A DNA stretch of 64,000 nt from the human T2T-CHM13v2.0 reference genome, Homo sapiens: the NCBI RefSeq assembly GCF_009914755.1, contig NC_060947.1; one strand, given 5' to 3'. Shown here one piece after another: positions 4,440 to 49,500 of this stretch. The translations under genes were made by a program, and so were the position numbers. The notes under the pieces were generated by a model that was given only the letters and a program-made list of their open reading frames with translations, ran no database searches and was not told the DNA's origin. Position 1 is the first letter of the stretch. The number at the start of each line of letters is the position of its first letter.

Positions 4440-4612
4440 CAACCTCTCCAGTGCTCCTGAAGCTTTGTTGCCTATGTCAACCTCAGGGATCTTATGAAAA
4501 GGTAGGTCTCAGTTACGAGGTCAAGGGTGGGGTTGGAGAGTCTCTGTTTCTGACAAGCTCCCAGGTAGGGTTGCTGTGGCTGGTTCATGGACACACAGTT
4601 AGCAAAGTGCTA
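4440..4612. mobile_element. MER5A-like hAT fragment
   Basis: gtaggtctcag...ctctgtttctgacaagctcccaggt...gctggttcatggacacac. Confidence 0.55.
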
Positions 4613-4854
4613 AGAATCCAGCCATTGCAATTGATCTTTCCATCTTTCCAAGCTCCCTTGTGCTTCACTGAACCACACCAAATAAACACTCAGTGTTATT
4701 CAGCCTTTGCGACTATTGTTTGAAATCCTACCAGATCTGGGGTTTTAAGTCAAGCCCAGCTGCACATTAGCATCATTTGGGAGGCTTTTTAAAAAGATGA
4801 ATGCCTGTTCTCCAAACTATGATATCAGAATCTCTTGAGGGTGCTGTCTGGACA

Positions 4855-5970
4855 TTTTAAAATATTGAGACAAAATGTACATAACATTCAATTAACTGTT
4901 TTAGAGTGTACAATTCAATGGCTTCTAGTACTTTCACAGTGTTGTGCAACTATCACTTTTTTCTTTACCCCAAAAGGAAACCCAGTGCCTGTTAGCAGTC
5001 ATTCCTCATTCCCTGCTCCCATCCTCAGACCCCAGCAATCACTAATTTACTTTCCATGTCTATGGCTTTTCTTATTCTGAATATTTCATATAAATAGAGT
5101 GATACAATATGTGGTCTTTTGTGTCTAGCTTATTTCACTTAGTCTAATTTTTTAATCTATATTGTAGTATACACTAGTAGTTTATTTCTCTTTATGGCTG
5201 AATACTATTCAACTGTATAGATATACCACATTTGTTTATCCATTAATCTGTTGATATACATTTTGTTTGTTTCCAAGTGTGATTATTGTTAAGAGCCCTG
5301 CTATTAACATTCATTTACATGTCTTTGGATACCTGTTTTTAATCTTTTGGGGCATGGATGGATAGATAGATATAGATAGATAGATAGATACACACATATA
5401 CACACACATATACACACATACACACACACACACACACACATATATGTATATAAAATATGCCTAGGAGTGTAATTGCTGGTTCATATGGTACCATAGACTG
5501 AATGTCTCTGTCCTCCCAAAAGTCATACATACGTTGAGATCTCAACCCCCAAGATGGAGCTATAAGAGGTGACTTAGATCTTTGGGACATGATCTAGGTG
5601 ATGAGGGTGGAGGTGATGAGCGGTGATGAGGGTGGAGCCCTTATGAATGGAATTAGTGTCCTTATGAAAAAGGCCCCAGAGAGCTCCCTCACCTCTTCCA
5701 CCATGTGCCTTCTCCACCACACAGCGAGAAGGCCCCGTCTATGAACCAGGAAGCGGGTTCTCACCAGGCACTGGATCTGCTGGTGCCTTGATCTTTGAGC
5801 CTCCAGAACTGTGAGATGGAAATGTCTACTGTTTATAAGCCACCCAGCCTATGGCATTTTGTTATGGCAGCCAGAAAGGACTAAGACATATGGTAACTCC
5901 GTTTTCACCTTACTGAGGAAATGACAAACCCTTTCTCACGGTGGCTGTGCCACTTTACATTCTCACTGGA
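4855..5970 (-). mobile_element. Old L1M (L1MB-like) 3' region with (TAGA)(CA) microsatellite and MLT1A0 insertion
   Basis: gtgtacaattcaatggcttctagtactttcacagtgttgtgcaactatcac; atttcatataaatagagtgatacaatatgtggtcttttgtgtc; cctaggagtgtaattgctgg. Confidence 0.8.
5489..5888 (+). mobile_element. MLT1A0 MaLR solo LTR
   Basis: gactgaatgtctctgtcctccc...tctatgaaccaggaagcggg...ggactaagaca; exact 5-bp TSD tatgg (5484-5488 / 5889-5893). Confidence 0.85.
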
Positions 5971-6099: not shown

Positions 6100-6590
<491 letters not shown>

Positions 6591-7760
6591 ATAATTTTAT
6601 AATTTGCAATAGTTTCACTTCACCCTATAACATACGCACTTTCCCACATCCTGTACTATTATTTGAAAACACAGTTTAACATCTACTTGTAATCTTTTAA
6701 TATAAAACAAGCCCACTATGCACTTAATCATTATATCTGGGGCCATTTGATTTTTCCCATTTTTTATGAAATACAAATAATACTCCATGAATACTCTTGA
6801 CAATAAATATTTCCACACATCTCGGAATATTTCCTTGAGTTAAATTCAGAATCATAATTACCAAATTACAGCGTTTAGACATTTTTATCTTTATGCTGTG
6901 TTGGCCACTTCATTGGATCTGAGCTCTTTCTGTGGAGGGAAAACCAATACTTTCATTCATCACAAACAAGGAAGACAATATGGGTTATTGGCTATTTTTA
7001 TTCTATTGCAAATATTGCTGGATCACCAATTCTGGGTTAATTTTTTTCTCAATCCAGGAGAAATAGATGCTATATATTTCCAGTCTCACTGCTTCCTTGC
7101 TATTTATGATGCTTTGCCCAGCTTTTTAATTTATCAGTCCTCAGTTTCTGTACCTACACCTTAAGGGTAAAAATACCCTACCTACTTAGTGGTATAGATA
7201 ATAATGATAGAACTTGTGCAGAAAGCCCTTTGTAACTGCCGAGCACAATACAACATGTGAGATATTTTTATAACTAGGCTCAGTGCTTTGAAAAGTTCAC
7301 TCCCAGAGGACTCCCCCAATAGAAATATCCTCATTTGCTTTGAGCCGTGGCTTTCATCAGCCTGACCTAAGCTGTATTATTTGCTCTGAATTCTTTAGGG
7401 ATCTGCAGAAGCTTTACTATTCACATATGCATATTTTGCAACTGTATGAATGCACTCCTTAAATTTCTGGGAGTTGGTTCACCTTAGGCAGAATTTGTAA
7501 ATAGTATATTTCTGGCTTATTTTCTATTTCCTTTTTATTTTAAGCCATGTGCCGATTCCATTGCATCCATCTTTACAGAGCTTGCCTCAAATCCTTTTTG
7601 GGGAAGAGGCAATAGAGAAACAGAAAAACAAGTCAACAAGCAAGCAGATAGATACAGTAGCACACTGTAGGATCTATTTGATACTTCCTCTTCCTTTCTG
7701 AACCTTTATAGCAAGGTCTATACTTACATGGAAACTTTAAATAGAAACTATGACACCTAC

Positions 7761-7784
7761 CCGGAAACAGGTAAGGCTATCCAT
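7761..7784 (-). CDS. Candidate 8-codon N-terminal coding segment MDSLTCFR, phase-0 donor
   Basis: gaaaATGG strong Kozak context (A-3, G+4); 24 nt to CGG|gtaggt; no downstream exon recognised in the window; gene not recognised. Confidence 0.35.
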
Positions 7785-8068
7785 TTTCACCAGTTGACTG
7801 TAAAAAGCCTCGGTTTTCTGTCTGAATTAGGAAAATTTGTAGACTTTGAGAGGTGCAAATGAGCAATAGTCTACTATAGTGCTGCTTTAATAGCTTCGAA
7901 AGATACCTGTCCCCCCGCCACGAACCCATGCTACAAGTACTCTTTTTTCCAGTAAAGATGCATTTTGAAAAGACTATTCCGAGGCAGATAAGAGAAGCTG
8001 TTGGCATGTTTTAATGAGGGAAAATGAGAAGGGGGCTGTAGAAACAGCTCGACAGACTGCTCATCAGA
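7761..8068 (-). other. Candidate first exon of a minus-strand transcript (~300 nt)
   Basis: Repeat-free; begins ~30 nt downstream of a minus-strand TATA box; ends at donor CGG|gtaggt (7761/7760), with an alternative donor CAT|gtaagt at 7728/7727; TSS position inferred. Confidence 0.5.
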
Positions 8069-9010
8069 GCAGAAGGAAGCTTCTATGCCTTTTTATAGAC
8101 ACGCTGGCCCCCTTACGTCCCTGAAATATTCTCTCTCCAAAGTTTCAAAGGTAGGACTTGCTAAGCGGGCAGTCCCGAAAGGGAAGTCTTGGAAACACCC
8201 TCTATCTGGAACAGGACCTACCCACACTCTGGTAAAGAATAGGGTATCTATACATCCCCAACGAAGAAACTGAGCTGAAAAACCAGGATGACGAGGCATG
8301 CAAATCTATTTGCAACCTTGGGCCAAGCTCCCAAGGCCAGCCACCCTGAGCATTGCTGCTTTGCCCTCTTTGATTTCCAGGGAATTAACACTCCTCAAGT
8401 TCCCCTGCATGTCACCTGCAGCCTGGGAGAAACATGGTGACTTGGGGCTCCCTGCAAGACACGGGATGTGTGATTCAGCCCCTTTTGATGCAGTACTTGA
8501 GGAAATGTCAGGGAGCAGAGAGTGAATAATCATTTGCATCCAGAGTGCCGCAGGCAGCTCTCCAAGAGGGAGCCCGCAGAAGTTGAGGCTTCCGAGGAGG
8601 CCGGGGACCCCTGTTTAGTTTTGAACTCAGCATGGGGGGAGAAAGAGAGATAGAGAGAGAAAGACCATTTCCCACAGAGCCGACAAATGCAGGGTTAAAT
8701 AAAAACAGTGGTACCCGTGGAAGAACGGGGAGAGCGTGCCAGCTGGAGCCTTTATTTCATGTTAATCATTCTTGTAGTTGCTGTAGCCTGAGAAAGACAC
8801 ATTTGTTATGCAGACAGTGTTCGTTGTCAAAGACTGATCAAGAATGCAGGAGTGCGGCCACAAAATGAATTAGCTCTCTGGATACCAAATGGGAAAGCCA
8901 ATTCGAACCAGAGCATGGCACAAGGGCTCCAGCAGGATTGAAATATACTAGGTGCGCATAAGAGCGAGCATTGTGACCACTGCTAATTATTTGCTATTTT
9001 TAGCACAGGC
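8069..9010 (-). promoter_or_regulatory. Candidate TATA promoter / proximal enhancer
   Basis: TATAAAAAG on minus strand (8097-8089); CRE-like TTACGTCC 8113-8120; perfect octamers ATGCAAAT 8298-8305 and ATTTGCAT 8532-8539; perfect MEF2 site CTATTTTTAG 8994-9003; locally raised CpG; no repeats. Confidence 0.55.
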
Positions 9011-9553: not shown

Positions 9554-9864
<311 letters not shown>

Positions 9865-10022
9865 TCAAGGGAAAGAAAACTCTCCCTCTTGAAGTTCTAT
9901 AGCATGTTCTTGTACTTGTATCAAAAATGCCATTAAAAAGAAACAAATATAGATAGACACATTCTTCTCTTTAAAACCTCAAAAATATTAGGCATATTCA
10001 GAAAAGCAAAGGAAAAAATCCT

Positions 10023-10345
10023 TTGTGTATATATGTATATATACATATTGTATATATACACACATATATACACATACACACACATATACACATACACACA
10101 TTCTTGATCAGCGTCACATATGTATCTATGAATATGTGTGTGTGTATGTGTATATACATATATACACACACAAAAGACTGTATAATCTATATTATATATA
10201 TAATTCTTCTGAATTATCCATTTGAACTTTTAAGATCCCATCAAACCACACCATGTCTACACTACTTAAGACATGATTTAGGCTCACAGACTTAAACTAC
10301 AGAGTGTTTAAGTGTATACACATATATTTAGATATAGATATAAAC
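10023..10345. repeat. (TA/CA/TG)n complex microsatellite containing a non-repetitive insert
   Basis: Alternating purine-pyrimidine tracts flanking a unique 100-bp segment at 10207-10306. Confidence 0.9.
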
Positions 10346-10683
10346 ATTTTAGTCAGTCAAGACACTGTATCACTGAAAATAGCTCCATGGATTCTCACCA
10401 AATAAAGAAGGCAGGGATAGGCTGGTCCAATACAGGCTTCATGGTTTGCATGGAAAAGACAAATGATCATCCCTCAGAACAGCCAAAAAGTTGATTTGCA
10501 ATTGAGATGCTTTGCACCTGAGTGAGTCCTCATCCTAGGCTTTAAGGCGTGTAGCAGCAGGAACTCATTAGATGCATGATGGCGAATGAATTCCCCAATT
10601 ATCTCATCTCAGGATGAGAGGCTGGCTGGATAAACATGTACACACACACACACACCCCACCACCGCCACCACCACCAAAAACA

Positions 10684-10970
10684 GGCCGGGTGCAGTGCCT
10701 CACGCCTACAATCCCAGCACTTTGGGAGGCTGAGGCAAGCAGATCACTTGAGGCCAGGAGTTTGAGACCAGCCTCGCCAACATGGTGAAACCTCGCCTCT
10801 ACTAAAAATACAAAAATTAGCCAGGTGTGGTGGCACACACCTGTAATCCCAGCTACTCAGGAGGCTGAGGCAGGATAATCGCTTGAGCCTAGGAGGTGGC
10901 ACCACTGCACTCCAGCCTGGGTGACAGAGCGAGACTCTGTCTCCAAAGAAAGAAAAACAAAAACAACAAA
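10684..10970 (+). mobile_element. AluSz-like with short right-arm deletion
   Basis: ggccgggtgcagtg...; ctaggaggtggcaccactgc lacks the ggaggttgcagtgagccgagatc segment. Confidence 0.9.
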
Positions 10971-11087
10971 AATGCAAGTAAGAGGGAGGACAGCATTATA
11001 ATATTACCTATTAGGATGAAATACTACTCATTGGCCAAGCTACACACACACACATGCACACACACACAACAACAATAACAACAGCAA

Positions 11088-11127
11088 CAGCAATCACATA
11101 TCACACCAGCAATCACATATCACACCA
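11088..11127. repeat. 19-bp perfect tandem duplication
   Basis: cagcaatcacatatcacac x2. Confidence 0.9.
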
Positions 11128-11627
11128 TGGCATGACTTGGTGGTAAAAGATATTCATTCATCAAACTTTTATGGGTCTGATATTCTAATATGTCCAGGTA
11201 ATACAAACTTGATTCATTCTCAAGGGATACGCATCTAAAAGGCCATGGGTCACCCATTACGGCACTCTTTTTTTATGATCATTCTGACATGATCAATCTG
11301 TGTCACATGATGACTTCTTGGGATAAAGTTACATGCAACTTCTCCAAAACACTTTTTCCCTCCCAATTTTGGACCCAGAGATGAAAGTAATTCATGGACA
11401 AACAAGGAACAGGTAGGTTCCTGCCTCTCAGAATCCTCTGAAGGATCAAAGGTATGTTTTTGAGCTGCCTACACCTGAAATCCTGATTTGGCTTTTGATT
11501 CTGTTTTCAGAACAGAAAGTGCATGTCATGGACTCCATAGAAGTCTCTTTCTGGGGAGTGCTTTAATGAGCCTAAGTAAATCCTTTGCCTCCTTTGTAAA
11601 GTTCCAGGAGAAATAATTCCACTAGGG

Positions 11628-11800
11628 AAGTAGTTCTCAGAGAGGGGATCCTTAGCAATGCCTGGCAATACTTTAGGACTTTCAGAGTTGTTAGATTATT
11701 GGAGGATGGATTCAGGGATGCTACTAAATATCTTACAATGCACACAACAGAGAATTATGCAGCCTAATGTATTACTAATGCCAAGGCTGAGAAACTCTGT
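11628..11800. mobile_element. MER20 hAT fragment
   Basis: cagggatgctactaaatatcttacaatgcaca...caacagagaattat...aatgccaaggctgagaaactctg. Confidence 0.7.
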
Positions 11801-12196
11801 TCTTTTGGTGGTTATGTACCTGAGCAGGTTGGGTCATACCTGACACAGTGTTGCCTGGATTTGGCAAACCTGGTGAAGAGAAACGCTTATCAGAGTCCTT
11901 TTCTCAAGAGGATTTTTTTTTCTGAATTATCCATATGAACGTTTAAGAGCCTATAAAACCACATCGTGTCTACACTGCCTAAGACATAATTTAGGCTCAT
12001 GGGCTTAAATCGGAGAGTGCTAGAAATGTGGACATAACTCCTGGAAACACGGATAGTATTGGGTGCTCCTGGGTTCATGCCAGGCCGGGAAATTCCGGTG
12101 CCCTAGTAGTTGATTCTCCCTTTTCCTTTCTAAATACAAACCCCGCCTGTGAACAGTACAGCTCCATCCCTGGATACATTTTAAAACACATCTAAT

Positions 12197-12508
12197 TGCC
12201 GGGCACAGTGGCTCACGTCTGTAATCCCAGCACTTTGGGAGGCCAAGGTGGGTTGATCACCTGAGGTCAGGAATTTGAGACCAGCCTGGCCAACATAGTG
12301 AAACCCCATCTCTACTAAAAATATAAAAATTAGCTGGGCGTGGTGGCAGGTGCCTGTAATCCCAGCTACTCAGGAGGCTGAGGCAGGAGAATCACTTGAA
12401 GCCAGGAGGTGGAGGTTGCAGCAAGCAGAAATCGCACCACTGCACTCCAGGCTGGGCTACAGAGCAAGACTCCATCTCAAAATAAAATAATAAAATAAAA
12501 TAAAATAA
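12197..12508 (+). mobile_element. AluSx-like with (TAAAA)n tail
   Basis: Full dimer; TSD core cacatcta on both sides. Confidence 0.9.
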
Positions 12509-22892: not shown

Positions 22893-23413
22893 TGTCTCAG
22901 TCTGTTCGTGCAGCTATAGCACTCACTCTGGACTGGGTAATTTATAAAGAGTAGAAATTTATTGCTCACAATTTTGGAGGCTGGAAGACCAAGATTAAGC
23001 AGCCGGCAGACTTGGTGTCTGGTGAGGGCTGCTCTCTGCTCCCTAAATGGTGCCCTGTAGCTGTGTCCTCCAGAGGAGACAGACTATTAGGTTGGTGCAA
23101 AATTAATTGCGGTTTCTGTCATTGAAAGTAGTGACAAAAATCGCAATTGCTTTTGCACCAACCTAATATGTCCTCACATCGCAGATGGGACAGGATGGGA
23201 GAAAAGGGATAAGCTTGCTCTCTCAAGCCTCATAATAAGGGTTCTAATCCCCGCCATGAGGATGGAGCTCACATGACCTAATCACCTCCTAAAGGCCCCC
23301 ATCTCTTAATACTATTGCTTAATAGTGTCACTAATTGGGAATTAACTGAACGTTAATTGGGAATTAAGTTCCAACATTAATCTTGGAAAGACACAAAAAT
23401 TCGAACCATAGCA
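22893..23413 (-). mobile_element. MST-type (MSTC/D-like) MaLR LTR containing a MADE1
   Basis: tgtctcagtctgtt...actgggtaatttataaag...ggtgtctggtgagggctg...aaccatagca. Confidence 0.8.
23087..23166. mobile_element. MADE1 (Hsmar1-derived 80-bp MITE)
   Basis: ttaggttggtgcaaaa...ttttgcaccaacctaa, 80 bp, TA target duplication on both sides. Confidence 0.95.
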
Positions 23414-27194: not shown

Positions 27195-27755
27195 ATCATA
27201 GCTGCCTCTAAAATGCCCCCCAACAGTCCCTGACCCTTGCTATGCATGTCCTCATACAGTCCTCTCCTACATTGCATCAGGGTTGGTTTATTGGATCAAT
27301 AAAATATTATTATTTGCATAGTAATGGTGCATGACTCCCGCAGCTAGGTCATAAAAGAGATTATGGTTTCTGTCTTGCTCTCTCTCTTGGGTCATTCATC
27401 CTGAAGAAAGATGGCAGCCATCTTGTAAGGACACTTAAGCAGCTCTATGGAGAAGGCTGCATGGTGAGGAACTGAGGTCTTCTTCCAATAGACAGTGAAA
27501 AACTGAGATCTCCAGCTAACAGCTACATAAGTGATCCATCTTACAAGTGGTTCCTCCTGCCCTGGTCAAGCCTTCAAATGACATCAGCTCCAGATGACAT
27601 CTTCACTGCAATCTCATGAGATGCCTGAGCCAGAAATACCAAGCTCAGCCACTCCAGGATTGCTGAGTCACAGAAAATGTGAGAAAAGAAATGTGTGTTG
27701 TTGTAAGCCATTACATTTTGAGTTGCTGTGTTCCACAGCATTAGATAACTAATAT
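27195..27755 (+). mobile_element. MLT1F-like MaLR LTR
   Basis: ctaggtcataaaaga; ggtgaggaactgagg; gtcaagccttcaaatgac; cagcattagataactaatata. Confidence 0.8.
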
Positions 27756-28994: not shown

Positions 28995-29538
28995 CATGTA
29001 ATCTCTTCATGTGACTAAAATAAGATGCAAAATGGATGAGATATGATATGTGGTTAACTGCTAAACTTTAACCTTCATCCTTTAAAACGAGTTCTTAAGT
29101 TCACAATGATGTAGTAGAATTTTTTCTTTACTATGGCATTTGATTCTAATTTACCTGAAGGATTTAGAGGAAGTGTGGACCCATGACTCACTTATGTAGC
29201 TGTTAGCTGGAAGCCTCTGTTTTTCACTGAAAAACTTAAGTATTTTAGAAAGAATTTAAAATACTCTTGGCTAAACCTGCAAAATAAGTACATAAAGAAA
29301 GGTATTTTAAGATTAAATCTCAATATTTAAAACACAGTTTGGAGGGCTTTAAAAAATTCTTTATTTCTATATATTCAAACATATTACCAAACTGAAAGAT
29401 AAACAGCATTTTTAGCTATCAATCCAGGCCTGGGAAAAGCAGAGCAAGACTATTTATTTTTTGAAAACCTTAATGGGAAGAGAGAAATAAAAGTTGAATA
29501 TACATTAGTAAAAAACAAAACCTTATCACTACTCTATC

Positions 29539-42549: not shown

Positions 42550-42983
<434 letters not shown>

Positions 42984-45289
42984 ACTTGGTCCTTACAATC
43001 TGCTGAGAGGCTTAAACATAAATACAAATAAACATAAACACAAACAATACACGGGAATAGCTAAGAGAAAAAGATTCAACTATGGCTTTTTTTAAAAAAT
43101 GCTGAAGAGCTTTGTAACTCTTCCAAAGACTTCATGATAAACAGCTCAGGGCCCTCTTGGTTAATGCTTGGAAGAAAAACAGTTTTTCTTTCAAACATCT
43201 TCTTTGGAACAGAGACTTCCTTCCAAAGAATTCTCTCCTGCAACCCACCCAGTAGCCAGTCTAATAAAATGTGTAAGAGGAGAAAAATGGTCTTACTCTC
43301 TCCTTTCCCCCCGTAGGGCGTAGCAAAAAATTGGAAAACAGAAAAATGGAATCTGGTGACACTTGAGACTAATGCCCGAATCTCCTGCTTCTGATTTTTC
43401 CAGCAGCCAGTCCGCATCCTCTCAGCACCCCTATTCAGCTATCACTCTCGTTTTGCTGTAGTAGGTCACAGATCAGATGATGGGGGGTGGGTGTTTGGTT
43501 TGGGTGTAACTTTTGTTGTGTTTTCAGCAGATTCAGCCCAGCACAACTTGTCAGGAGATTCATGACTTAGCAATTGTCAGGGATTGGTCAAGTCATATTG
43601 AAAATGAGATTAACTGAAAGATTCAAGTGGCCAGCCCTATGCTAGACTTTGTAGTGCTTCCAAGGGGGTTCACGTGAAGGAGTCACATCTGGGCTTCAGG
43701 CTCATCAAAGGCAGGAGTGAAACGCATTGGCTCACCCTTGGCTGCCATTGCGGGAGAAACATGGGAGGTGAGACAGCACCACGGACAGCTCCAAGACACA
43801 CGTTTCCCCTAACACGGTTCCCTCTCCTCTTGATCCTGGGTTCTCATTCTGGTTGGTCCAGACACCTAGGACTTAACAACCTGAAAACATCAGCCCACAT
43901 TGTCCCTTTAAGCCACGTGGCACCAGGTTTCTTTTTTACTGAATGTCCCAATGACTTCCTCATTTGTGAACTATCCTGGCACCCAGTTCAACATTTTATC
44001 TGAAACCCTACAAATCTTTTTCTTCTATCTCTTACAATGAAATGCGAGCCATCTTTTCATGCAAGACTCATTTTTCTAGTTGTTCTGAAAAAAAACTCTC
44101 AGTTTTTCAGAAGATTCTTTCAACTATTACCCATCCCCATCTCCCAAATCGCCACGAATGCCACCAAATATTATCAGATATTGAGATGAGGTACAGTGAG
44201 TTAGGAGGGGTGGGGGTTCTGTTTATTTTCATGATTGTTTTAAATTTGTTTTAATATTAATAATAAAACGTCCACCTCCAAACTAACCAATGGGCAAATA
44301 TACCCCTCTAAATTTCAGAGGAAACAATAAAAAGTTTGATGGCCTGTGGGAAAGCAATTAAATAAAAAATGAGAAAGCTGGGATAAGAAAATGTGTTTTT
44401 TTTGCTATAAGCCTTTTTAAAATGAGATCTGACGTTTAATTCTGACGTGAGTAATTTTTCAGATAAAATTAAACACAACATCCTGCTTCCTAATCTTTTG
44501 AGAACCAAAGCTAATGGGAGCTTTTGAAATGTGATTATGTTACTCCTCTTTTTAAAAATTTTCAGCACAACCAAAAATGCCCTTAAAATAAAGATGCTCC
44601 ACTAGAGCTTAATGGGTGTTTCCATTTCTCCTCATCTCTTCTTTCTCTCCTGAAGTCAGGATTAGGGACCTCTTTGCCTGTTTTCATAGCAGTTTGGACT
44701 TCTTCTATCATGTCAGAATGTTTCTGTGTCTCCTTTAAACTCCAGGTTCCCTGGATATAGACACTTTTTCTTGTTGCTATTCATGATTGTTTCAGTGACA
44801 ACACGACGGCTTCATGTTTATTAAGTGAATGGACAGACATTTCTTCTCTCATTTTCCTGACCAATGCTTGGGGGAAAAATCAGATTGTCAGAAAGGGTAC
44901 CTAAATGATAACTTATTGAAAATGAAAAAAAAAAAAAAGAAAGAAACCCAGCCTGTCCATTTGGCAAAGTGATGAAAATAACATGCCCCAAATATGCCAC
45001 ATTCTTCTCTGGAAAAGAAATTCTGATTCCAACTCTTCTCCCAGTCCACTTTGCTGTAAACAAGGGAAAAAAAGCATACATAATAAAGAAAAAGTAAAGG
45101 TATGTCTATGAAGAAAAAACTGGAAACAACAGACACCAACTACATCCGTTATAGTCATTCAAACTGAAAACCTCAAATTAAAAGGTTATTTAGACTGTTG
45201 CCAGTCCAGAGAATTTCAAATATCAGTCCTTTAATTTGATTTATCAAAGAGAGATAAAGAATTTGTCAAAAAAACATCAAAAAAGCAAT

Positions 45290-45671: not shown

Positions 45672-46842
45672 CATATATATGGGGCTTTATATATATGTAT
45701 ATATACACACTATATTATATATAGTATATACATTATACATGTAATGTATATACTATATATTTTTGAGACAGTATATAGCTATTATATATAGTATATACAT
45801 ACATATATACTACATATACACTATGCATATATACTTACAATCTGCTGAGAGGCTTAAACATAAACATGAATAAACATAAACACAAACAATACAAAGGAAT
45901 AGCTAAGAGAAAAAGAAAGTCTATAAAGATGATCTTACATTTAGAATTAGCTATACATACATATACATATATACACTATATGCATAGTATAGTATATGCA
46001 GTGTATATATATTACATGTATAGTATATATGTATATATACTATATGCATAGTACATATATTAATACATATATGTACTATGTGACACGTATGTATTTTTAT
46101 ATATACATATAGTACATATACTATATACTATAGATAGTATATGTATAGTATATGTACTATACTACACTATACTAATGTACTGTACTATACCATATATACT
46201 ATATATAGTACCTACATACTATACTATATGGTATACTATATACTATATTTATACATCTATACTATACTATAGTATATACACACATATACTATGTGTATAT
46301 AGTATGCATATTATATACATATATAGTATAATATACGTACACTATACACAATACATACTATATGTATGTATACTATACATGTACATATACTAGACATACT
46401 ATATTTGTATAGTTTATATACACTATATATACCATATAGCATATAAACACTATATATACTATATAGTATATACAATATATATACACACATAGTATATACG
46501 ATATAGTATATACAATATATATACACATACAGTATATACTATATAGTATATACAATATATATACACATACAGTATATACTATATAGTATATACAATATAT
46601 ACACACATACAGTATATACTATATAGTATATACAATATATATACACATACAGTATATACTATATAGTATATATAATATATATACACATATAGTATATACT
46701 ATATGTATATACAATATATATACACATATAGTATATACTATATAGTATATATAATATATATACACATATAGTATATACTATATAGTATATACAATATATA
46801 TACACTATATAGTATATACTATGTGTGTGTATATATATATAT
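45672..46842. repeat. ~1.17-kb TA-rich low-complexity block with a 40-bp-period minisatellite and a captured insert
   Basis: Unit atatagtatatacaatatatatacacatacagtatatact repeated ~9 times (~46451-46820); non-repetitive insert at 45834-45948. Confidence 0.9.
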
Positions 46843-47124
46843 TTTGAGATAGTATCTCACTGTGTCTCCCAGGCCGGAGTGCAGTGTTGTGATCATAGCT
46901 CACTGCAGTTTCTACCTCCTAGACTCAAGCCATCCTCTTGCCTCAGCCTTCTGAGTAGCTGGGAATACAGGTTCATGCCACCATGCCCAGATAATTTTAT
47001 TTTTTCAGAGATACGGGATCACTGTGTTACCCAGGCTAGTCTCAAACTCCTGGCCTCAAGTGATCCTTTTGTCTTGGCCTCCCAAAGTGCTGGGATTACA
47101 GGCACCAGCCACCATGCCCCGCCT
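46842..47124 (-). mobile_element. AluJ whose tail end abuts the TA block
   Basis: ttttgagatagtatctcactgtgtctcccaggccgg...gatcatagctcactgcag. Confidence 0.9.
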
Positions 47125-49500
47125 TAAGCCTTTCAAGTATTTGAAAAGAGCTACCTTGTTGTATTAATTATCTGTCACTATCTAACCAATTATCAAACTA
47201 TCTCCAAGTTTGTGACCCAAAACAAAAAGCATTCCTTGAGGTTTCTGCAAATTGAGGGTCTGGATGTGGTCACCTGGGTTCTCCATTTCAAGAAGAAGAT
47301 CTCTTATAGGCTACAAATATTCTAGTCAATGGGAAAGATTCACTAAGTCCTGCCCACACACAAGTGCAAACGGATCCTCAAGAGCACCAATTTCAGCAGG
47401 CAGGGATGATTGGATACATTTTTGAAGGCCGCCTACCACATATGTGGCTCTGTTTTCTTTTCTCCGGGTCCACACTTTCCTTAATCATCTCTCCAGCAGG
47501 AAGCCCAGGTCTGCATTTCTTCATACTCTGCACTAGTCCTTACTTGGACTTAGACATTTAGCCATGGCTCTTCTCATATCTCATTCAAAAATAAAACCAA
47601 AAGGGATGCCTTTCTGTCTCTTCATTTCCCCCAAGTCCCTGTTTTTTTGTTTTAATTTAGAAAATGTTATTTGAATCTTCCCCAAAATTTAGGATATTTT
47701 CCACATAAGTCCACAAGCAGCAACTTAGATAAGCAGGCTGCCTGTGTAAGTGTGTGTCGCTATTTCCACCCTCCAACTACTTTCTTTTCTTGTTTATGCT
47801 GGATGTCTCAAAACCCATATTCTATATGAAGTCTCATTGCTCAAGCTGGGAAAGCTTTGTTCTCCAAAATCCTTGATGTTTAGACACACACAGAAAGTCA
47901 CAGTACCACACACACACCCTGAGTAGTATCCTTTAGGTTATTTTGAGCTCTTCCTTCAAATCCCAGCAGTTTGAAGTGCACATGCTGAGCAACTCTCAGC
48001 AGAGCTGAGGAAAGTCTATAAAGATGATCTTACATTTAGAATTGACTAAAGGGTTTTATTTTTAGTTTTATTGGTCTGTTTTCTGTCACAGAGGGGCTGC
48101 CATTGTAATAGTCCTGCCAAACATCGCATTCAAGATTTAATACATGGATACACCTGTCAGCCATAGCTTCCCAACTTAAAGTAAATGAATTTGTAAAGAT
48201 GCATATTTATGACTGTGCAAATTCTAAAGCTAATAGGACAAATAAACTCTCTAAATTTCCAATTTTCTACATTTAATATTTCATGTATTCAAAATGTACA
48301 CCAAGTCAGTCAATCCTCCTTCTTTCCTCAGAATGGAAATACAAACCACTGTCATTGACATCTTTATTGTGAAGTCCATACTGGACTTACCTTGGGTGTC
48401 TATATAGTGAATGCATCTTGGGAATAAGCTCAGAACACAGCCAGCATTTACGATCAAGTAAATCCAGGCTGGCTTGCTTCCTTTGACTTCTATCACCTGC
48501 CACAGGTAAAATATAATATCCCTGTAGCTGGGTGAAAACATCATGTGTTTTGGATTTATACAGATTTGAGTATACACCTGAATTTAATTAAACCACTTCA
48601 GAAATGTGTATAAATCATTGATTCTTCGTAAGCCTGCTTTCCCATGATTTAACAAATTTTAATACTAGGAATATTAAAGATGATGATAGTTCAAAATGTT
48701 GAAGAAACAAAGAACAAACGGTATATAAAAGTTGTTCATTCTCTTCCTTCTTGCTGTTTCTAGAGCTCACTAGAAAATTTCTTCCAGAAAGATATCCTTC
48801 TTACTGGAAAAACTTGGTAAAATGTACGGAGACCCCCAGAATTTTAATACTCAAGTGACACCACTTAAATGTGGATAAAGAATGAAAATCCCAGCAATAT
48901 ATTAAAGACTGGGGTGGGATTTGGGCATCTTTATGGCATAAGCCAACAACACAAAGACTGGGTCTTCTGTTCAAGAGAAGAGAGTTCTGAAAATTGCTTT
49001 CCATGAAAGCTTTCTTCTTACAATTATTTGTCCCCTCACCCTGAGCCTTAGTAATATTTTACACATGCACACAAACAGAAGCCCACATACACTCACTCCC
49101 TCTATCCTGAATTTTAGATGTACTATTCATTCAAGAAGATATGGTACAATTCCACACTTGCTAATTCATGGATTCAATACTCATTTCTTCTCTGCAACAC
49201 AAAATGGTCCTTGGAGATATGACATAGGCTCCTTTGGAGCACCATACATTGCCAAGATTTGAGTGCTACTAAACGAAATTTGAAAGTTCCCCCTTTTATC
49301 TCCATAGAATGGAGGAGGCGATGGAAGAACGGATTCACTCAAAATCATATTTGAAACACGTCTTCATGGATCCATGGTATGTTTTTTAAAGTAGGTTTTC
49401 ACTTGTAATACTTTGTCTCCATTCATAATCGTAGGGATCTGACAGGGGACTTTGCAGTCTTTTCATTTTTGTAAAAGAATTTTCCTTTTGCCACTGATAT

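What the first reader, a model, noticed from the sequence alone, without database searches (positions are those of the whole stretch)
10207..10306. Second, older insert in a TA/CA microsatellite copied from 1.7 kb downstream
Seen: 10207-10306 aligns without gaps to 11920-12019 (100 nt, ~17 mismatches by hand count) and is embedded in (TA/CA)n sequence, while the other copy lies in ordinary unique DNA. Inference: the same process as at 45.8 kb but much older. Two independent cases in 64 kb suggest that TA-rich microsatellites recurrently capture local sequence. Low-complexity masking would normally hide this pattern.
Basis: partly seen in the sequence, partly recalled or inferred. Interest (0 to 1): 0.7.

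Follow-up and report, generated by a model that had tools for sequence, protein, structure and literature searches.

The report
Old local copy inside TA repeat
A 100-base piece of a human X-chromosome intron is repeated 1.7 kb away inside a TA/CA-rich repeat, likely pasted there long ago during error-prone DNA repair; such local copies are a known kind of genome scar, and only the unproven hint that TA repeats attract them would be new.

Summary
10207-10306 and 11920-12019 align without gaps at 17/100 mismatches, and a whole-genome search returns only these two copies and the chrY gametolog. Y carries the TA-embedded copy but has lost the other copy, so the event predates X-Y divergence here. 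Polarity rests on inference: the homology ends where the TA/CA sequence begins, on both sides. The 45.8 kb case is a two-donor insert whose Y site is an empty TA tract, so there the tract came first. Size, distance and single-copy status fit repair-mediated duplications (Pace 2009, PMC2671141), whose screen saw only transposon acceptors. The left tract folds strongly (z -6.0), and the 10 bases just before the donor match the tract's edge inverted (found post hoc), which suggests fold-back then template switch. Enrichment is only suggestive: 2 of 18 independent long TA tracts hold local copies, against 2 short pairs in 218 kb of non-TA DNA (P 0.03-0.13). There were no matched control tracts. 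Verdict: new member of a known kind, with an open, testable hotspot hypothesis.

The parts
10024..10203 (.). Imperfect TA/CA/TG tract left of the insert; inverted arms 10024-10047/10145-10168 (96%) and 10048-10101/10120-10173 (78%); predicted hairpin-former
   Evidence: DNA fold of 10010-10203 -38.7 kcal/mol, z -6.0, 0 of 200 shuffles as good; similar tract on Y
10013..10022 (-). Left edge of the tract; its reverse complement equals the 10 bases just before the donor homology (candidate microhomology for a fold-back-then-switch step)
   Evidence: broad null P 0.018, narrow post-hoc null 2e-4; the Y inverted arm keeps part of this motif about 40 bp before the insert
10204..10306 (+). Inferred acceptor copy (insert); weak homology may run on to about 10320 with one gap
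   Evidence: present on chrY at C24:16177724-16177826, 83%
10312..10341 (.). Short degenerate TA-rich stretch right of the insert, conserved on Y
11909..11918 (+). Donor-side half of the candidate microhomology
11917..12019 (+). Inferred donor copy in unique intronic DNA; absent from Y
10685..12490 (.). Two Alus and the DNA between them; Y has one Alu with the left flank of the first and the right flank of the second, so the donor is missing on Y
   Evidence: diagnostic sites mostly favour the second Alu; exact deletion point not resolved
45834..45948 (+). Comparison case: younger two-donor insert inside the TA tract at about 45683-46850; 2-nt overlap at the internal joint 45915-45916; empty on Y
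42992..43074 (+). Donor 1 of the 45.8 kb insert (94%, 2.84 kb upstream); present on Y
48010..48043 (+). Donor 2 of the 45.8 kb insert (34/34, 2.1 kb downstream)

Best explanation
The 100-mer at 10204-10306 is a diverged same-strand copy of unique intronic DNA 1.7 kb downstream, likely pasted into a hairpin-prone TA/CA tract by microhomology-primed repair synthesis in the germline before X and Y stopped recombining here. Inferred steps: (1) the tract forms a hairpin or cruciform and breaks or stalls a fork; (2) the free 3' end copies back along the tract to its left edge; (3) it re-primes through about 10 nt of microhomology on DNA 1.7-1.9 kb downstream and copies about 100-115 nt; (4) it rejoins the TA-rich right end. 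Later TA slippage reshaped the left junction differently on X and Y, and Y deleted the donor. Shown: the copy, its single-copy status, its presence on Y, and an empty TA site on Y for the younger 45.8 kb case. The insert is expected to be a neutral scar with no function.
For: Gapless 83% copy, E 5e-23. Only self, donor and Y gametolog in 3.1 Gb. Homology stops where TA-rich sequence starts on both sides of the 10.2 kb copy and on neither side of the 11.9 kb copy. Three-way site patterns over 10207-10306: 70 shared, 4 private to X-insert, 13 to Y-insert, 12 to donor, 1 all different, plus 3 gap columns, so the donor split off before the X and Y inserts did. Length and spacing fall inside the RD class (mean 162 bp, peak about 1.2 kb, two-donor chimeras described; PMC2671141). 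Tract folds at z -6.0. 10-nt junction match. Sister case with an empty TA site on Y and a 2-nt internal overlap. TA repeats break and are repaired by Pol theta with small templated duplications in cancer ecDNA (PMC13645644, passages).
Against: No empty site for 10.2 kb: Y is filled and lacks the donor, so direction and the prior existence of the tract are inferred. The right TA flank is only about 30 bp. The microhomology was found post hoc (broad null P 0.018), and 20-40 bp of divergent TA-rich sequence lies between it and the insert on X and Y. A 17% divergence blurs both junctions. Sequence cannot tell break repair (SDSA or Pol theta) from a replication template switch. The Pol theta evidence is somatic and on circular DNA.
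Confidence: 0.72

Rival explanations
1. Same copy, but the TA/CA-rich flanks were made by or after the insertion (low-complexity filler that later slipped), so the tract did not attract the event.
For: Y is already filled, so the order is unseen here. The left junction differs between X and Y, showing later TA turnover. Filler of 1-68 nt is common in RDs.
Against: At 45.8 kb the Y tract exists without the insert. The left tract is about 180 bp, longer than the filler range, and its structure is alignable between X and Y.
Confidence: 0.15
2. Polarity is reversed: the 10.2 kb copy is the original and the 11.9 kb copy is the insert in unique DNA.
For: Only the 10.2 kb copy is found on Y; no interrupted element could be shown around either copy.
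Against: Y lacks the whole 10.7-12.2 kb block, not just the 100-mer. The donor has 12 private changes, so it existed before X-Y divergence. Both copy ends would have to coincide by chance with the ends of a pre-existing island between TA-rich stretches.
Confidence: 0.08
3. It is an ordinary RD that landed beside TA sequence by chance; TA tracts are no hotspot. (This rival concerns the general claim and is compatible with the best explanation's account of the copy.)
For: Two non-TA local pairs occur in 218 kb (42 bp at 27493/29229, best hit local; 43 bp in L011). 16 of 18 long TA tracts show no local copy. All-size test P 0.13. The window was picked because it shows the pattern.
Against: 2 of 3 local duplications in the window sit in the 2.9% of it that is TA tract (post-hoc P 0.002). 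In the independent set both copies of 50 bp or more are TA-associated (P 0.027).
Confidence: 0.35
4. Two fragments of an old interspersed repeat, or the remnant of a 1.7 kb tandem duplication or retrotransposed piece.
For: 17% divergence is in the range of old repeat copies; the genome search gives lower bounds only.
Against: 3 hits genome-wide, while the same search finds dozens for real repeats. No further homology between the flanks. No poly(A) tail at the insert. No Rfam match in 9900-12200.
Confidence: 0.04

Closest known systems
Repair-mediated duplications (RDs), Pace et al. 2009, PMC2671141 (read: abstract, parts 1, 2 and 5 of 8, methods section 21, chrX rows 1-92 of 103 of Table S1)
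   Same: Short non-tandem copy, donor within 5 kb, single other copy on the chromosome, no poly(A) tail; the 45.8 kb neighbour matches their two-donor chimeras.
   Different: Their screen required the acceptor to interrupt an annotated transposon, and the main text never mentions microsatellites or simple repeats (0 hits). Here the acceptor is a TA/CA tract. Their proximal chrX rows start at 12.2 Mb, so this locus is not listed.
Doublets / short paired duplications (Thomas et al. 2004; recalled, paper not held)
   Same: Same-strand short pairs about 1 kb apart that arise by insertion (recalled).
   Different: Defined by exact matches of 25 bp or more (recalled). This pair's longest exact run within 10207-10306 is 15 nt, so it is too old for that screen; the 34-nt piece at 45915/48010 would qualify.
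TA-repeat fragility repaired by Pol theta MMEJ with templated small duplications (PMC13645644; abstract and passages)
   Same: TA-rich structure-forming DNA as break site; small duplications enriched there.
   Different: Somatic, ecDNA in cancer cells; the word 'germline' occurs 0 times. A donor 1.7 kb away is farther than typical Pol theta templated inserts (recalled).
FoSTeS/MMBIR template switching (recalled; PMC8421209 seen only as a search listing)
   Same: Microhomology-primed copying of nearby DNA, fold-back inversions, multi-donor inserts.
   Different: Cannot be told from SDSA or TMEJ by a 17%-diverged footprint.

Membership tests
Repair-mediated duplication (proximal RD class, Pace 2009) | Copied segment of at least 50 bp and a few hundred at most | tested here: met
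   100-103 bp; class max 619 bp
Repair-mediated duplication (proximal RD class, Pace 2009) | Donor on the same chromosome, more than 50 bp and less than 5 kb away | tested here: met
   offset 1713, gap about 1.6 kb
Repair-mediated duplication (proximal RD class, Pace 2009) | Found at only one other place in the genome | tested here: met
   3 hits: self, donor, and the Y gametolog of the acceptor site with its flanks; search gives lower bounds
Repair-mediated duplication (proximal RD class, Pace 2009) | No poly(A/T) tail of retrotransposition at the acceptor | tested here: met
   none at either end on X or Y by reading; the donor is preceded by a T run that the acceptor does not show
Repair-mediated duplication (proximal RD class, Pace 2009) | Microhomology, filler or deletion at breakpoints judged against an empty orthologous site | tested here: inconclusive
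   Y is filled at 10.2 kb; candidate 10-nt microhomology. For 45.8 kb the empty site exists and a 2-nt overlap is seen
Repair-mediated duplication (proximal RD class, Pace 2009) | Polarity from outgroup primates | not testable with these tools
   no relatives held for this genome
Pace 2009 catalogue (operational set of 824) | Acceptor interrupts an annotated transposon (detection device, not a biological feature) | tested here: not met
   flanks are TA/CA simple sequence; locus absent from the proximal chrX rows
Interspersed repeat family | Many dispersed copies | tested here: not met
   3 hits against 26-40 listed for true repeats; no Dfam library on hand
Segmental duplication | At least 1 kb and 90% identity (recalled definition) | tested here: not met
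   100 bp, 83%
Doublets (Thomas 2004, recalled) | Exact match of 25 bp or more | tested here: not met
   longest exact run 15 nt within the aligned 100-mer (mismatch list)
Pol theta (TMEJ) templated insertion | Dependence on Pol theta | not testable with these tools
   needs genetics; footprint too old

The most novel reading that the evidence does not exclude
Long TA-rich, hairpin-forming tracts are germline hotspots for repair-mediated local duplication in primates: they break, fold back, and capture 30-700 bp pieces of DNA from within about 4 kb, often from two donors, at many times the rate of ordinary DNA. Transposon-anchored and exact-match screens could not see this class, and it would be the evolutionary record of the TA fragility known from cancer cells.
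Probability: 0.5. Interest if true: 0.55.

Novelty: new member of a known kind. Interest (0 to 1): 0.37.

Why it matters
On its own this is a neutral intronic scar of a described class. It would matter if TA tracts are systematic acceptors. That would link somatic TA-repeat fragility (Pol theta/MMEJ) to germline genome evolution, explain where non-repetitive islands in long AT-rich repeats come from, and give a dated, genome-wide read-out of how breaks at TA structures are repaired. Complete primate genomes make this directly testable. The X-Y gametolog pair here is a built-in outgroup that already orders one event (45.8 kb).

Tried and rejected
Repeat-family origin: rejected. RNA family: none at gathering score in 9900-12200. 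Polarising 10.2 kb with Y failed because Y is filled and lacks the donor. A genome-wide scan and matched control tracts could not be run. AGAT-type tracts were located but not read, and only 18 of the 38 other TA tracts listed were read; a 19th (L017, 4.2 kb, nearly all TA) gave no hit and was left out of the counts. Rows dropped before counting: pairs taken as independent transposon copies (window 139/1766, 49779/54098, 54719/58897; L023, L026, L031; the LTR-like pairs on Y) and matches inside tandem arrays (L014, L027, L028, L030 5267/5351). Only L031 was tested genome-wide (remote copies 88-95% vs local 85%); the rest were judged on 68-77% identity and recalled repeat identity. Y sequence was left out of the rates as non-independent. 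Literature searches: (RD + microsatellite) 0 papers, 8 papers holding the RD title phrase, none on TA tracts by title or abstract start; searches gave no listing on germline local copies in TA tracts; two searches gave 0. PMC7615360 (passages) has no TA-repeat terms. Most subscription papers and bioRxiv supplements were not searchable, so absence from print is not established. Calendar dates for X-Y strata are recalled only.

Full report
Observation. The two stretches align without gaps with 17 mismatches in 100 (12 transitions, 5 transversions); dust-filtered blastn gives E 5e-23, and the next best placement in the window is 46/100. The upstream copy has about 180 bp of imperfect TA/CA/TG sequence on its left and about 30 bp of TA-rich sequence on its right. 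The downstream copy has no repeat hit in 11808-12160. By the hub's annotation both lie in an intron of a long PUDP isoform; there is no Rfam match.

Not a repeat family. A whole-genome search with 10204-10312 returns 3 matches: self, the 11917 copy (85% over 93 nt), and one on contig C24 (taken as chrY from its number and length; 83%). The same tool lists 26-40 matches for true repeats. The tool warns that counts are lower bounds, and no Dfam library was available.

The Y gametolog as outgroup. Y aligns to window 9566-10956 and, with breaks, to 21904-47183. At 10.2 kb Y carries the insert in the same TA/CA context. It lacks about 10.7-12.2 kb: one Alu there has the left flank of the X Alu at 10685 and the right flank of the one at 12198, so the donor is gone. 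Site patterns over 10207-10306 are 70 shared, 4 private to the X insert, 13 to the Y insert, 12 to the donor and 1 all different, plus 3 gap columns. The donor therefore split off before the X and Y inserts did. JC distance between the X copies is 0.19 (raw 95% CI 0.10-0.26), against 0.044 for the 45.8 kb insert and 0.10-0.15 for X-Y flanks. With recalled stratum ages of about 30-45 Myr (search 53 found no source) the event is roughly 40-65 Myr old; this is inference. Direction is inferred, not shown: the homology ends at the TA-rich sequence on both sides of the upstream copy and on neither side of the downstream one.

The sister case. 45834-45948 is a chimera of 42992-43074 (94%) and 48010-48043 (34/34) with a 2-nt overlap at the joint. 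Y has the homologous TA tract without this insert and keeps donor 1. For this event the tract came first and was the acceptor.

Mechanism. The left tract with its edge (10010-10203) folds at -38.7 kcal/mol, z -6.0, 0 of 200 shuffles as stable, with inverted arms. The ten bases just before the donor homology (11909-11918) equal the reverse complement of 10013-10022, the point where an inverted copy of the tract would run out. The Y inverted arm keeps part of that motif about 40 bp before the insert. Chance is 0.018 against the whole 224-bp neighbourhood and 2e-4 against the tract edge alone, the latter chosen post hoc. The likeliest path is a break or stall at the hairpin, fold-back synthesis, a microhomology switch to DNA 1.7-1.9 kb downstream, about 100-115 nt of copying, and rejoining. 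These steps are inferred; SDSA, Pol theta end joining and replication template switching cannot be separated here.

Do TA tracts capture local DNA generally? incidentally listed 38 other long TA tracts, ranked by likeness to the 46 kb tract and not by islands. I read 10 kb around the 18 top-ranked ones I could obtain (L021-L038) and self-compared them. 2 of 18 hold local copies. L030 is a 6-kb tract inside an L1-like element (name recalled) with inverted 149- and 57-bp copies of its right flank; the local flank is the best of 40 scored matches out of 4047 candidates, 93% vs 91%. L038 has inverted 67- and 169-bp copies between its flanks, unique in the genome, plus a 31-bp island matching DNA 2.9 kb away. 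The other 16 show none. In 218 kb of non-TA DNA (window, those flanks, L009-L014) there are two pairs, 42 bp (27493/29229, inverted, best hit local, shared with Y) and 43 bp (L011; not searched genome-wide), and none of 50 bp or more. With TA tracts at 16.5% of the bases, P is 0.027 for copies of 50 bp or more and 0.13 for all sizes; against my own background of about 9 per Mb, P is 0.06. Against this reading: tiny numbers; the tracts are centred while background DNA near edges has fewer possible donors; most dropped transposon pairs were not tested; no length-matched control tracts were read (only about 8 kb of non-TA tandem sequence was in the sample, with no captured piece); and the two independent cases are mostly inverted flank copies rather than same-strand captures. 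In the window 2 of 3 local duplications fall in 2.9% of the bases (P 0.002), but the window was selected for this.

Comparison with what is known. Pace et al. 2009 (PMC2671141; abstract, parts 1, 2, 5, methods, chrX rows of Table S1) describe 824 proximal repair-mediated duplications (mean 162 bp, peak spacing about 1.2 kb, 20 two-donor chimeras in their wider set). This pair meets their size, distance, copy-number and no-tail criteria; breakpoint signatures are inconclusive without an empty site. Their pipeline required a transposon acceptor, so TA-tract acceptors were out of reach, and this locus is not in their proximal chrX rows. A 2026 paper (PMC13645644; abstract and passages) reports breaks at TA repeats on ecDNA repaired by Pol theta with small duplications, somatically. 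My searches listed no paper on germline local copies in TA tracts, but the library lacks most subscription papers.

Verdict. Real, old, probably neutral, and a new member of a known kind. Interest 0.37.

Noticed in passing
window 45834-45948 with 42992-43074 and 48010-48043: Two-donor insert in a TA tract with an empty site on Y; donor 1 starts about 10 bp after a GA-rich tract (about 42852-42982).
   Followed up: yes
window 27493-27534 / 29188-29229: 42-bp inverted pair, 90%, outside TA sequence; homology stops sharply, the best non-orthologous hit is the local one, and both copies are on Y. Likely another old local duplication.
   Followed up: partly
window about 10.7-12.2 kb, 12.5-21.9 kb and 34.1-35.9 kb: Blocks missing from the Y gametolog; the first is bounded by two Alus and leaves one Alu on Y.
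   Followed up: partly
L030:4757-4907, 5445-5503, 6538-6594 (G000:C1 about 55.548 Mb): A 6-kb TA tract splitting an L1-like element holds three pieces of its own right flank, two inverted and one direct; the two short ones are identical over 57-59 bp and inverted to each other.
   Followed up: partly
L038:2932-3167 / 6726-7389; 4567-4669 / 7434-7464 (G000:C5 about 87.40 Mb): TA tract whose two flanks are inverted copies (93%, unique in the genome), with a small inverted island pair inside matching a palindrome 2.9 kb away.
   Followed up: partly
L011:154-196 / 1661-1703: 43-bp direct pair, 95%, 1.5 kb apart in non-TA DNA; looks like an ordinary doublet.
   Followed up: no
L033:4484-4577: 94-bp non-TA island inside a TA tract with no match within the 10 kb read.
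   Followed up: no
L004:518-1793 / 7653-8911 (G000:C24 about 16.166-16.175 Mb): Two 1.28-kb direct repeats, 86% identical, 5.9 kb apart, LTR-like, just upstream of where the Y homology to the window begins.
   Followed up: no
window 23085-23168: 84-bp self-complementary stretch, 81%.
   Followed up: no
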